64,000 nucleotides of DNA from Klebsiella phage RCIP0009: the sequence record OR532803.1; one strand, given 5' to 3'. A program made the position numbers and the translations under genes. Positions within the stretch are counted from its first letter, which is position 1, and each line of letters starts with the position of its first letter. The notes under the pieces are model-generated. The model had not been told where the DNA came from. It saw nothing but the letters and a program-made list of their open reading frames with translations, and made no database searches. Shown here piece after piece: positions 25,436 through 26,869 of this stretch.

Positions 25436-26869
25436 ATGAACAACAAAACTTTCGAAGAACTGAACAGCATCATCACTTCCGTAGATTCCTATAAGGTTTC
25501 TCACTGGTCGCAATATCCAACTGGCTCCGAAGAGGCGCTGTTTTATATTGAATCTCGTGGTGGTAAATTTGATCAAGTAGTTACGGCTGGCTGTAACCGC
25601 CTTGCGCAAATCCTATCACGTCCGGTGACTATGGAAAACGTGGATTTTGCTAATCGGTTGTACAAAATGCACTTTGGGCGCGAAATCTTCAACTACAAAG
25701 GTTGGAAAGAAATTGCAGAACTGGGTTACATCCCTCTTGAATTCAGAGCGATTCCGGAAGGAACCCCAGTAGCGGTTAAAAATCCGGTTGCAACTTTCCA
25801 TGCTGGGAAAAATGCGCTGTGGTTAGCAGGACACGTAGAAACCCTAGCGATCAGGGGAGTATGGTTCCCTTCAACCGTAGCAACTCTATCCCGCGAATGT
25901 AAAAAAGTGTTGAAGAAATATCTCAAGAAAACCTCCGATCTAGAAGGTGAAGCATTTGATATGGTGTTACGTACCCGTTTGCATGACTTCGGCGCACGTG
26001 GAACCTCTTCTGCTGAATCCGCTGGTATTGGTGGCCTCGCGCACCTGTATAACTTCCTCGGTACTGATACCGTAGAAGCGCTGATTATGGCTATCTCTCT
26101 GTTTGAAGATTGTCAGAAAGCGTTTGATGATGGTGAAATGGCGGCTGGTATTTCAATTCCTGCTCGCGAACATTCCACTACCGTTTCTTACGGCAAAGAA
26201 AACGAAGACCTTGCGTACAAAAACAGTATTGAGATCTTCGGCGAAGGGATGTATGCATGTGTGTATGATTCCTGGGATTTTAAAGCGGCGGTTCGCCGTA
26301 TCGCAGAATATAAAGATTCGATTCTTTCTAAGGGCGGTACTCTGGTAGTTCGTCCGGATTCTGGTGATATGGTAGATAATATCATGTACGCTCTTGAAGA
26401 ACTGGGCCGTATCTTTGGCTATACAGTGAACTCAAAAGGGTATAAAGTACTACACCCAGCAGTAAGGATCATTCAAGGCGATGAAATTCATGGCCCTGAA
26501 ACAATCAATCGGGTGTTGAACTGGATGGAGTCTAACCGTTGGGCGTCTGAAAACATCGCGTTTGGTATGGGCGGCGGATTGCTTCAAGAAGTTACCCGCG
26601 ACACTCAAAAATATGCGATGAAAATGTGCGCAATCAAAATTAACGGTGTGTGGACTGGTGTGTATAAATGTCCAAAAGGCGCTGAGTGGAAAAAGAGTAA
26701 AAAAGGGTTGTTGATGACTATCACTGATGGTGTTAACTTTAAAACCATTGATACTCTGGAACAGAAAGTGCCGGAAGGCTGGAAAGATGCTATGATCACA
26801 TACTATGTCAACGGAAAGATTACTGCCCGTGACACTTTAGAGGAAATTAGGAACCGTGCCGGGATTTAG
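25436..26869 (+). CDS. nadV: Nicotinamide phosphoribosyltransferase (NAMPT/NadV)
   Basis: 477 aa, NAMPT-typical length; SYKVSHW, RPDSGD active-site motif, GMGGGLLQ; known family in T4-like vibrio/aeromonad phages. Confidence 0.9.
   Translation: MNNKTFEELNSIITSVDSYKVSHWSQYPTGSEEALFYIESRGGKFDQVVTAGCNRLAQILSRPVTMENVDFANRLYKMHFGREIFNYKGWKEIAELGYIPLEFRAIPEGTPVAVKNPVATFHAGKNALWLAGHVETLAIRGVWFPSTVATLSRECKKVLKKYLKKTSDLEGEAFDMVLRTRLHDFGARGTSSAESAGIGGLAHLYNFLGTDTVEALIMAISLFEDCQKAFDDGEMAAGISIPAREHSTTVSYGKENEDLAYKNSIEIFGEGMYACVYDSWDFKAAVRRIAEYKDSILSKGGTLVVRPDSGDMVDNIMYALEELGRIFGYTVNSKGYKVLHPAVRIIQGDEIHGPETINRVLNWMESNRWASENIAFGMGGGLLQEVTRDTQKYAMKMCAIKINGVWTGVYKCPKGAEWKKSKKGLLMTITDGVNFKTIDTLEQKVPEGWKDAMITYYVNGKITARDTLEEIRNRAGI

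What the first reader, a model, noticed from the sequence alone, without database searches (positions are those of the whole stretch)
25436..26869. NAMPT (NadV) with no adjacent NMNAT partner
NAD reconstitution pathway 2 needs both Nampt and an NMN adenylyltransferase (KVP40 NadV + NatV).
Here a full-length NAMPT carrying the RPDSGD motif is present, but none of the flanking ORFs (86, 149 and 100 aa) is large enough to be an NMNAT/Nudix enzyme.
Either the partner lies elsewhere in the genome, the host NadD/NadR is used, or a neighbouring novel protein such as the SLOG-like ORF at 23530 substitutes.
Basis: partly seen in the sequence, partly recalled or inferred. Interest (0 to 1): 0.55.

Follow-up and report, generated by a model that had tools for sequence, protein, structure and literature searches.

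The report
Phage NadV; NMNAT partner encoded elsewhere
This is the ordinary nicotinamide phosphoribosyltransferase gene of a KP15-like Klebsiella phage; its NMN adenylyltransferase partner lies 70-100 kb away in related genomes, as in the reference phage KVP40, so nothing is missing.

Summary
Window 25436-26869 (+) encodes an intact 477-aa NAMPT/NadV with the RPDSGD motif. Its flanking ORFs (86, 149 and 100 aa) have no NMNAT features, and no NMNAT is detectable anywhere in the 64-kb window.

The implied anomaly is not real. The window is about 99.6% identical to Klebsiella phage R4_1, so it comes from a Slopekvirus (KP15/KP27-like T4-type phage).

- **Partner in relatives:** all eight related IMG/VR contigs longer than 140 kb carry both nadV and a 352-aa bifunctional NMNAT/Nudix gene (NadM/NatV type). 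GenBank record counts for the two genes match, about 110 each. The partner is 41% identical to KVP40 NatV. It lies about 73-101 kb from nadV on the opposite strand, outside the window.
- **KVP40 is the same:** in KVP40, the reference for NAD reconstitution pathway 2 (NARP2), natV and nadV are 42.7 kb apart.
- **Already published:** Osterman et al. list the KP15 and KP27 NadV proteins, with the same N-terminal sequence, as "Nmnat-associated".
- **The SLOG-like ORF at 23530:** it is a DprA/SLOG-fold protein. It lacks an HxGH nucleotidyltransferase motif, so it is an implausible NMNAT substitute.

Verdict: an ordinary, already catalogued NARP2 system with dispersed genes. Interest is low.

Caveat: the window's own genome is not in the collections, so natV in it is inferred from relatives.

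The parts
25436..26869 (+). nadV: nicotinamide phosphoribosyltransferase (NAMPT/NadV), 477 aa. It carries out the first step of NARP2 (nicotinamide + PRPP -> NMN).
   Evidence: - Pfam NAMPT_N plus NAPRTase.
- NCBIfam PRK09198 at 463.7 bits, above the cutoff of 405.
- 49% identical to KVP40 NadV, E=6e-152.
- Full-length matches to solved NAMPT structures: 7yqo E=2.9e-104 and human 3dgr E=6e-87, with the catalytic motifs aligned.
- 100% identical at the DNA level to nadV of phages pR7_1 and R4_1.
25425..25428 (+). GGAG ribosome-binding site, 7 nt upstream of the nadV ATG.
   Evidence: Read directly from the sequence.
24689..24949 (+). Upstream flanking ORF, 86 aa, unknown function (phrog_7372). 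Not an NMNAT.
   Evidence: No Pfam hit. PHROG of unknown function.
24959..25408 (+). Upstream flanking ORF, 149 aa, with Cys-rich zinc-ribbon-like motifs (CPVC...C...C), unknown function (phrog_7424). Not an NMNAT.
   Evidence: Only one sub-threshold Pfam hit, Nairovirus_NSm at 20.1 bits against a cutoff of 27.4. PHROG of unknown function. Sequence.
26856..27158 (+). Downstream flanking ORF, 100 aa, unknown function (phrog_7497). It overlaps the nadV stop by 14 nt. Not an NMNAT.
   Evidence: No Pfam hit. The PHROG profile is matched over the full 100 aa.
23530..24111 (+). SLOG-superfamily, DprA-like protein of 193 aa (phrog_768), immediately downstream of rnlB. This is context only and is not part of the NAD pathway as far as shown.
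   Evidence: - PHROG 768, E=1.9e-60.
- AlphaFold2 model with pLDDT 94.1.
- Foldseek top hits are H. pylori DprA (E=5e-6), ShosA, S. pneumoniae DprA, ThsA SLOG and LOG proteins.
- Conserved motifs are IGSR, SGGAxGxD, RN..Q and GGT.
22521..23540 (+). rnlB: RNA ligase 2, 339 aa, the upstream neighbour of the SLOG-like gene (context).
   Evidence: Pfam RNA_ligase plus T4_Rnl2_C.

Best explanation
The gene is the nadV (Nampt) half of a standard two-gene NAD+ reconstitution pathway 2 (NARP2) in a KP15/KP27-like Slopekvirus.

**Mechanism.** NadV converts nicotinamide and PRPP to NMN. A phage-encoded bifunctional NMN adenylyltransferase/Nudix hydrolase (NadM/NatV type, 352 aa) then adenylates NMN to NAD+. 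This rebuilds the NAD+ pool during infection and counters NAD+-depleting defences.

**Gene arrangement.** As in other T4-type phages, including KVP40, the two genes are not an operon. natV sits about 73 kb one way round the circular map, or about 101 kb the other way, on the opposite strand. That is outside this 64-kb window.

**Shown here:**
- the identity and intactness of nadV;
- natV in all eight related IMG/VR contigs longer than 140 kb, and matching GenBank record counts for the two genes;
- the dispersed arrangement in KVP40.

**Inferred:**
- that this particular phage, whose full genome is not available, carries natV;
- the enzymatic activities and the anti-defence role, both by homology to the KVP40 enzymes.
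For: **nadV is a KVP40-type Nampt.**
- Its identity and conserved catalytic motifs are shown.

**The window is a Slopekvirus.**
- It is 99.6-99.7% identical to R4_1 over most of its length.
- nadV is 100% identical to nadV of pR7_1 and R4_1.

**The partner exists in relatives.**
- A 352-aa ORF lies at PP889462.1 125587-126645 and at R4_1 170389-171447.
- It has Pfam CTP_transf_like plus NUDIX.
- It matches NCBIfam PRK05379, bifunctional NMNAT/Nudix, over its full length at E=7.6e-79.
- It matches the solved NadM-Nudix structures 2qjo (E=1.4e-52) and 2qjt over their full length, with GRFQPFHYGH, SSTNLR and the Nudix box conserved.
- It is 41% identical to KVP40 NatV.

**The two genes co-occur.**
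- At 90% protein identity or more, natV is in 111 phage records and nadV in 110.
- At 60-80% identity the counts are 65 and 67.
- At least 10 of the 11 records with the closest nadV are explicitly listed with natV.
- All 8 IMG/VR contigs longer than 140 kb that carry this nadV also carry natV. The only 2 without it are fragments of 32 and 46 kb.
- One of those 8, contig 3300045988_041714, shares the window's unusual tail-fibre sequence. Its nadV is at about 13.4 kb and its natV at about 116.4 kb.

**Dispersal is normal.**
- In KVP40, natV and nadV are 42.7 kb apart.
- In Vibrio phage D483 they are about 49 kb apart.

**Literature.**
- 94% of phages with a KVP40-type Nampt also encode Nmnat (bioRxiv 10.1101/2024.02.11.579819).
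- That paper's supplementary table lists the KP15 and KP27 NadV proteins as 'Nmnat-associated'.

**It is not NARP1.**
- No Adps/Prs homologue was found in a complete relative genome.
Against: - The window's own genome is not in any searched collection. Its distal tail-fibre region is at most 96% identical to any record, so natV in this exact phage is inferred, not observed.
- The NatV-like protein scores below the NCBIfam equivalog cutoffs: 265 bits against 397.
- No biochemical or genetic data exist for the Slopekvirus enzymes.
Confidence: 0.9

Rival explanations
1. This phage has nadV only, and the NMN it makes is converted to NAD+ by host enzymes (NadR, or PncC plus NadD).
For: - No NMNAT is encoded in the 64-kb window.
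- About 6% of phages with a KVP40-type Nampt lack Nmnat.
- Enterobacteria have NMN-using salvage routes through NadR and PncC.
Against: - Within this lineage, nadV and natV co-occur in all 8 IMG/VR contigs longer than 140 kb, and their GenBank record counts match.
- This includes the phages whose nadV is 100% identical to the window's.
- The window covers only about 36% of a genome of roughly 175 kb, and it lies where natV is not expected.
Confidence: 0.04
2. A neighbouring novel protein, for example the SLOG-like ORF at 23530-24111, replaces the NMN adenylyltransferase.
For: - The ORF lies 1.3 kb upstream of nadV.
- Homologues lie within about 1-2 kb of NadV/Namat genes in PaP1, phiPsa374 and one IMG/VR contig.
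- Viral SLOG domains have been predicted to act in NAD+/ADP-ribose pathways (PMC9503650).
Against: - The fold is DprA/SLOG, not a HIGH-motif nucleotidyltransferase, and there is no HxGH motif.
- A canonical natV is present in the relatives, so no substitute is needed.
- In other T4-type phages the SLOG gene follows rnlB with no nadV nearby (6 of 45 loci).
- In L048 it sits beside both natV and nadV.
Confidence: 0.01
3. The protein acts as a Namat (NARP1-type), joining nicotinamide to ADPR-pyrophosphate to give NAD+ directly, so it needs no NMNAT.
For: - NadV and Namat belong to one protein family.
- KVP40 Nampt can make some NAD+ from ADPR-PP in vitro.
Against: - No Adps/Prs homologue was found in a complete relative genome.
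- The protein groups with KVP40 NadV (49% identity) and cellular NAMPTs, not with the Adps-linked PaP1-type proteins, which are about 32% identical.
- KVP40 Nampt prefers PRPP.
- Osterman et al. label the KP15 and KP27 proteins 'Nmnat-associated'.
Confidence: 0.03

Closest known systems
Vibrio phage KVP40 NadV/NatV, the NAD+ salvage pathway that defines NARP2 (Osterman et al., bioRxiv 10.1101/2024.02.11.579819)
   Same: - Both are T4-type (Straboviridae) phages.
- NadV is 49% identical over its full length.
- The NatV-type partner is 41% identical and has the same NMNAT plus Nudix architecture.
- In both phages the two genes are tens of kb apart, not in an operon.
- In both, natV lies near the nrdC.11-type nucleotidyltransferase and tk.
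   Different: - KVP40 also encodes NadR, PnuC and a Sir2 protein. No homologues of these were found in the Slopekvirus relative.
- In the Slopekvirus, nadV sits between rnlB and dam. In KVP40 that position holds no nadV.
- The Slopekvirus enzymes have not been tested experimentally.
Klebsiella phages KP15 and KP27 and other Slopekvirus genomes
   Same: - The nadV gene is 99.3-100% identical at the DNA level and has the same gene neighbourhood.
- KP15 and KP27 NadV are already tabulated as 'Nmnat-associated' in the NARP paper's supplement.
- Several GenBank records already annotate both genes correctly.
   Different: The window's phage is a distinct isolate.
- Its distal tail-fibre region is at most 96% identical to any record.
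- It carries two homing-endonuclease insertions that R4_1 lacks.
Bacterial NadM-Nudix (Synechocystis slr0787, PDB 2qjo; Francisella tularensis NadM, PDB 2qjt), as the closest solved relatives of the partner enzyme
   Same: The alignment covers the full length, and the HxGH motif, the SSTxxR motif and the Nudix box are conserved.
   Different: The sequence is divergent and falls below the NCBIfam equivalog cutoffs. The enzyme is phage-encoded.
NARP1 (Adps plus Namat), for example in Pseudomonas phage PaP1
   Same: The NadV/Namat protein family is the same (about 32% identity). A SLOG/DprA-like gene and an RNA ligase lie nearby in both.
   Different: In NARP1 the transferase gene lies two genes from a Prs-like Adps gene, separated only by a small ORF. 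No Adps was detected in the Slopekvirus relative, and the partner there is an NMNAT.

Membership tests
NAMPT / NadV (type II phosphoribosyltransferase) | Domain architecture: an N-terminal NAMPT_N domain followed by the NAPRTase-family catalytic barrel. | tested here: met
   Pfam PF18127 (residues 12-95, E=2.6e-22) and PF04095 (residues 181-426, E=6.9e-41).
NAMPT / NadV (type II phosphoribosyltransferase) | The score exceeds a curated whole-protein family threshold. | tested here: met
   NCBIfam NF006629 (PRK09198) scores 463.7 bits against a cutoff of 405. NCBI names this model 'nicotinate phosphoribosyltransferase'.
NAMPT / NadV (type II phosphoribosyltransferase) | Substrate-binding and catalytic residues of human NAMPT: Tyr18, Phe193, Arg196, Asp219, His247, Arg311, Asp313, Gly353-Asp354, Gly383-Gly384 and Arg392. 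The numbering comes from established structural work and is recalled, not taken from a tool. | tested here: met
   In the phmmer alignment to human NAMPT 3dgr_A, the query motifs are DSYKVSH, HDFGARG, GTDTV, REHST, RPDSGD, IQGD, FGMGGG and TRD. They align with the human motifs DSYKVTH, HDFGYRG, GTDTV, AEHST, RPDSGN, IQGD, FGSGGG and TRD.
NAMPT / NadV (type II phosphoribosyltransferase) | Enzymatic activity: nicotinamide + PRPP -> NMN, with a preference for PRPP over ADPR-PP. | not testable with these tools
   Only homology to the characterised KVP40 enzyme is available.
NARP2 (phage Nampt plus Nmnat NAD+ reconstitution pathway) | A homologue of KVP40 Nampt is encoded by the phage. | tested here: met
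   49% identity over 488 aligned columns, E=6e-152.
NARP2 (phage Nampt plus Nmnat NAD+ reconstitution pathway) | A homologue of KVP40 Nmnat (NatV) is encoded in the same phage genome. | tested here: inconclusive
   - It is absent from the 64-kb window.
- The rest of this phage's genome is unavailable.
- It is present in all 8 related IMG/VR contigs longer than 140 kb, and GenBank record counts for the two genes match.
- KP15 and KP27 are labelled 'Nmnat-associated' in the source paper.
NARP2 (phage Nampt plus Nmnat NAD+ reconstitution pathway) | The two genes need not be adjacent; the pathway is defined by co-occurrence in a genome. | tested here: met
   - KVP40 natV is at 94507-95532 and nadV at 138214-139707.
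- The co-occurrence criterion is stated.
- The separation in Slopekvirus is about 73/101 kb.
NARP2 (phage Nampt plus Nmnat NAD+ reconstitution pathway) | No Adps (the NARP1 partner) in the genome. | tested here: met
   tblastn of the PaP1 Prs/Adps protein against the complete phi1_146007 genome gave no hit at E<=1e-3.
NARP2 (phage Nampt plus Nmnat NAD+ reconstitution pathway) | It restores NAD+ and overcomes NAD+-depleting defence systems. | not testable with these tools
   This has been shown only for the KVP40 genes.
NadM/NatV bifunctional NMNAT-Nudix (the partner gene in relatives) | An N-terminal HIGH-type nucleotidyltransferase domain with HxGH and SSTxxR motifs, plus a C-terminal Nudix domain with a Nudix box. 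| tested here: met
   - Pfam CTP_transf_like (residues 10-98) and NUDIX (residues 215-346).
- The motifs GRFQPFHYGH, SSTNLRK and GGHKNGNETFLDCAIRELLEEVRI align with those of 2qjo and 2qjt.
NadM/NatV bifunctional NMNAT-Nudix (the partner gene in relatives) | The score exceeds the NCBIfam equivalog cutoff. | tested here: not met
   The best model, NF003786, scores 265.5 bits against a cutoff of 397, although the alignment covers the full length at E=7.6e-79. The protein is a divergent phage member, not a bacterial equivalog.
SLOG superfamily, DprA-like (ORF 23530-24111) | A Rossmann-like SLOG fold with a Gly-rich loop after strand 1 and a GGT-type motif. | tested here: met
   - AlphaFold2 pLDDT 94.1.
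- Foldseek hits to DprA, ShosA, ThsA SLOG and LOG.
- Invariant residues G17 S18 R19, G46, D52 and G148 G149 T150.
- The Pfam DprA hit is below threshold: 21.4 bits against 29.6.

The most novel reading that the evidence does not exclude
The most novel reading left open concerns the neighbour of nadV, not nadV itself. The DprA-like SLOG protein (23530-24111) might be functionally tied to phage NAD+/PRPP metabolism or to counter-defence.

**What suggests it.**
- The gene follows RNA ligase 2 in T4-type phages.
- It lies within 1-2 kb of NadV/Namat genes in the Slopekvirus/Karamvirus lineage, in an unrelated IMG/VR contig that has natV and nadV adjacent, and in the Pseudomonas phages PaP1 and phiPsa374.

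**Possible roles (speculative).**
- Sensing or degrading ADP-ribose-derived immune signals.
- Mimicking the DprA-like antitoxin ShosA of the ShosTA defence system, whose toxin is a phosphoribosyltransferase.

A second and far less likely reading is that this particular phage has lost natV.
Probability: 0.12. Interest if true: 0.55.

Novelty: already known. Interest (0 to 1): 0.08.

Why it matters
It matters little beyond annotation. The gene is half of a published counter-defence pathway, NARP2, that rebuilds NAD+ depleted by systems such as Thoeris, DSR and SIR2-HerA. Its presence in KP15-like Klebsiella phages is already tabulated.

- **For genome scans:** NARP2 genes in T4-type phages are dispersed, so the absence of an adjacent partner in a partial window is not evidence of a missing or novel step.
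- **For annotation:** many GenBank records of these phages still label nadV and natV as 'hypothetical protein' or 'cytidyltransferase'. Those labels could be corrected.
- **For therapy:** Slopekvirus phages are used as therapeutic candidates against Klebsiella. An intact NARP2 is relevant to their ability to infect strains that carry NAD+-depleting defences.

Tried and rejected
1. **Looking for the window's exact source genome, to check natV directly.** Megablast of 6-kb, 25-kb and 4-kb pieces found no identical record.
   - The best match, R4_1, is 99.6% identical with several gaps.
   - An exact 41-mer from the tail-fibre tip hit two IMG/VR contigs. Neither is the source: the SLOG gene of contig 041714 is only 94% identical.
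   - An exact natV 35-mer hit only KP15. A protein-based scan was needed instead.
2. **Promoter and terminator scan of 21.5-29 kb.** The number of promoter-like sites equals the shuffle expectation, so nothing can be said about transcription units.
3. **Is KVP40.0135 (182 aa, downstream of KVP40 rnlB) the SLOG homologue?** It shows no similarity.
   - A1 was also too divergent for the search for related loci.
   - Both runs were repeated with A2 and A3.
5. **Other NAD-related genes in the window.** tblastn with NadR, PnuC, Sir2, a Macro/Tk.4 protein, Prs and a small Nudix protein found none. The Macro-like and small Nudix genes of the relatives lie outside the window.
6. **Guessing KVP40 gene positions.** The first two stretches fetched held neither gene.
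Full report
**1. The observation**

The window holds an ORF at 25436-26869 on the + strand. It is 477 aa and starts at ATG. A GGAG ribosome-binding site lies 7 nt upstream.

The ORF is clearly a NAMPT/NadV:
- Pfam NAMPT_N (E=2.6e-22) and NAPRTase (E=6.9e-41).
- NCBIfam PRK09198 at 463.7 bits, above the curated cutoff of 405.
- PHROG 448, 'nicotinamide phosphoribosyl transferase', E=7.6e-166.
- Full-length matches to solved NAMPT structures: 7yqo at E=2.9e-104 and human 3dgr at E=6e-87.

In the alignment to human NAMPT, these query motifs line up with the human substrate-binding and catalytic motifs: DSYKVSH, HDFGARG, GTDTV, REHST, RPDSGD, IQGD, FGMGGG and TRD. The residue numbers for the human enzyme are from my own knowledge of that enzyme. 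The enzyme therefore looks intact.

- None has a meaningful Pfam hit.
- All belong to PHROGs of unknown function.

No NMNAT can be found anywhere in the 64-kb window:
- tblastn with the Slopekvirus NatV, KVP40 NatV and KVP40 NadR gave nothing better than E=0.9.
- No open segment of 100 aa or more in any frame contains an HxGH motif.

**2. What genome this is**

A 6-kb piece around the gene matches more than 100 Klebsiella phage genomes of about 175 kb at 95-99.8% identity. These are KP15, KP27, Matisse, Miro, PMBT1, phiEap-3 and their relatives, which make up the genus Slopekvirus in the Straboviridae (T4-type).
- The whole window aligns to phage R4_1 at 99.6-99.7% over most of its length, with a few gaps.
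- nadV itself is 100% identical at the DNA level to nadV of pR7_1 and R4_1.
- The window's distal tail-fibre region (42.3-46.4 kb) is at most 96% identical to any record. The exact source genome is therefore not in the collection.

**3. The partner**

I read the annotation of a complete relative, phi1_146007 (PP889462.1), end to end. One candidate stood out: a 352-aa 'cytidyltransferase' at 125587-126645 on the minus strand.
- It has Pfam CTP_transf_like plus NUDIX.
- It aligns over its full length to NCBIfam PRK05379, 'bifunctional nicotinamide-nucleotide adenylyltransferase/Nudix hydrolase', at E=7.6e-79. This is below the equivalog cutoff.
- It aligns over its full length to the solved NadM-Nudix enzymes of Synechocystis (2qjo, E=1.4e-52) and Francisella (2qjt). 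The GRFQPFHYGH motif, the SSTNLR motif and the Nudix box are conserved.
- It is 41% identical to KVP40 NatV over the whole protein.

The same gene is intact in R4_1 (170389-171447) and in pR7_1, the two phages whose nadV is identical to the window's.

Counts in the phage collection agree between the two genes:

| Protein identity band | natV records | nadV records |
|---|---|---|
| 90% or more | 111 | 110 |
| 60-80% | 65 | 67 |

In IMG/VR, all 8 contigs longer than 140 kb that carry this nadV also carry natV. The only two without it are fragments of 32 and 46 kb. One of the 8, contig 3300045988_041714, shares the window's unusual tail-fibre sequence. Its nadV is at about 13.4 kb and its natV at about 116.4 kb, on the other strand.

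The partner therefore exists. It lies about 101 kb from nadV one way round the circular map and about 73 kb the other way, outside this window. A complete relative genome holds no Prs/Adps, NadR or PnuC homologue. The system is NARP2, not NARP1 or NARP3.

**4. Is non-adjacency unusual?**

It is not.
- In KVP40, the reference for this pathway, natV is KVP40.0162 at 94507-95532 and nadV is KVP40.0264 at 138214-139707. They are 42.7 kb and about 100 genes apart.
- In Vibrio phage D483 the two genes are about 49 kb apart.
- Osterman et al. linked the two genes by co-occurrence in a genome: 94% of phages with a KVP40-type Nampt also encode Nmnat. The 'operon' they expressed was a construct.
- The supplementary table of Osterman et al. 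lists the NadV of KP15 (GU295964_00238) and KP27 (HQ918180_00239) as 'Nmnat-associated'. Their N-terminal sequences are the same as the window's protein.

This system is therefore already in the literature.

**5.

The ORF at 23530-24111 is indeed SLOG-like.
- It belongs to PHROG 768, 'DprA-like'.
- An AlphaFold2 model built from 27 homologues has pLDDT 94.1.
- Foldseek finds DprA, ShosA, the ThsA SLOG domain and LOG proteins.

That fold is not a nucleotidyltransferase fold, and the protein has no HxGH motif. With natV present in the lineage, no substitute is called for.

**6. Mechanism**

NadV makes NMN from nicotinamide and PRPP. NatV adenylates NMN to NAD+. Its Nudix domain probably trims ADP-ribose or NAD+ levels, as described for NadM enzymes. 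The pathway replenishes NAD+ during infection and, as shown for the KVP40 genes, defeats Thoeris and DSR2.
- **Shown here:** the identity of the genes, their conserved motifs, their co-occurrence in relatives, and their dispersed arrangement.
- **Inferred:** the presence of natV in this exact phage, the enzymatic activities and the anti-defence role.

**7. Side observations**

The SLOG/DprA-like gene follows rnlB directly in 16 of 45 IMG/VR loci. It lies within 1-2 kb of a NadV/Namat gene in these places:
- the Slopekvirus/Karamvirus lineage;
- IMG/VR contig L048, where natV and nadV are adjacent;
- Pseudomonas phages PaP1 and phiPsa374, where the transferase is NARP1-type and sits beside Prs/Adps and RNA ligase 1.

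The linkage recurs but is not obligatory. It fits the prediction that viral SLOG domains act on NAD+/ADP-ribose derivatives. It is also reminiscent of ShosTA, a defence system with a phosphoribosyltransferase toxin and a DprA-like antitoxin (PMC11961720). I did not establish any function.

The window also carries two free-standing homing-endonuclease genes that R4_1 lacks.

**8. Verdict**

This is an ordinary, already catalogued NARP2 nadV whose partner lies outside the window. Novelty: already known. Interest: low.

Noticed in passing
window 23530-24111 (+); also L014 4998-5579, L015 4998-5576, L048 8001-8417: The DprA-like SLOG protein (phrog_768; AlphaFold2 pLDDT 94; Foldseek hits to DprA, ShosA, ThsA SLOG and LOG) directly follows RNA ligase 2 in 16 of 45 IMG/VR loci. 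It lies within 1-2 kb of a NadV/Namat gene in several lineages: Slopekvirus/Karamvirus, an IMG/VR contig with natV and nadV adjacent, and Pseudomonas phages PaP1 and phiPsa374, which are NARP1-type. The linkage to NAD/PRPP enzymes and RNA ligases recurs but is not obligatory. The function is unknown.
   Followed up: partly
window 9805-10440 (+): A 211-aa GIY-YIG homing endonuclease (Pfam GIY-YIG plus the I-TevI DNA-binding domain) is inserted between the major capsid protein gene (8151-9719) and the vertex protein gene (10473-11762). The insertion is absent from the close relative R4_1.
   Followed up: partly
window 32971-33624 (+): A 217-aa HNH/NUMOD3 homing endonuclease lies just upstream of the nrdG-like gene (33621-34112). 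It is absent from R4_1.
   Followed up: partly
window about 42300-46400 (+): The distal long-tail-fibre and adhesin region is the most divergent part of the window. It is at most 96% identical to any of about 200 related records, compared with about 99% elsewhere. A 41-mer from it is shared with two IMG/VR contigs from metagenome 3300045988. This is probably a host-range determinant that marks a distinct isolate.
   Followed up: partly
window 26915-26937 (+): A strong terminator-like hairpin (GCCCCTTGTAGCTCGCAAGGGGC followed by TTTTTGC) lies 46 nt after the nadV stop codon. It is inside the conserved 100-aa downstream ORF and overlaps that ORF's internal ATG at 26913. It could end the nadV transcript or regulate the downstream ORF.
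   Followed up: no
window 21993-22517 (+): A 174-aa ORF upstream of rnlB matches PHROG 4592 ('decoy of host sigma70', Srd-like) and also HNH/endonuclease VII-like PHROGs. It has no Pfam hit.
   Followed up: no
PP889462.1 130306-130761 and 147021-147428 (L003), outside the window: Slopekvirus relatives also encode a Tk.4-like Macro ('A1pp') protein, 37% identical to KVP40 Tk.4, and a separate 135-aa Nudix hydrolase. These are further candidate genes for ADP-ribose metabolism in the same genome.
   Followed up: no
GenBank records of Slopekvirus phages (for example R4_1, pR7_1 and the RCIP series): In many deposited genomes, nadV and natV are annotated as 'hypothetical protein' or 'cytidyltransferase'. 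In phage 150040 a neighbouring feature is labelled 'IS1595 family transposase'. The annotation is inconsistent across near-identical genomes.
   Followed up: no
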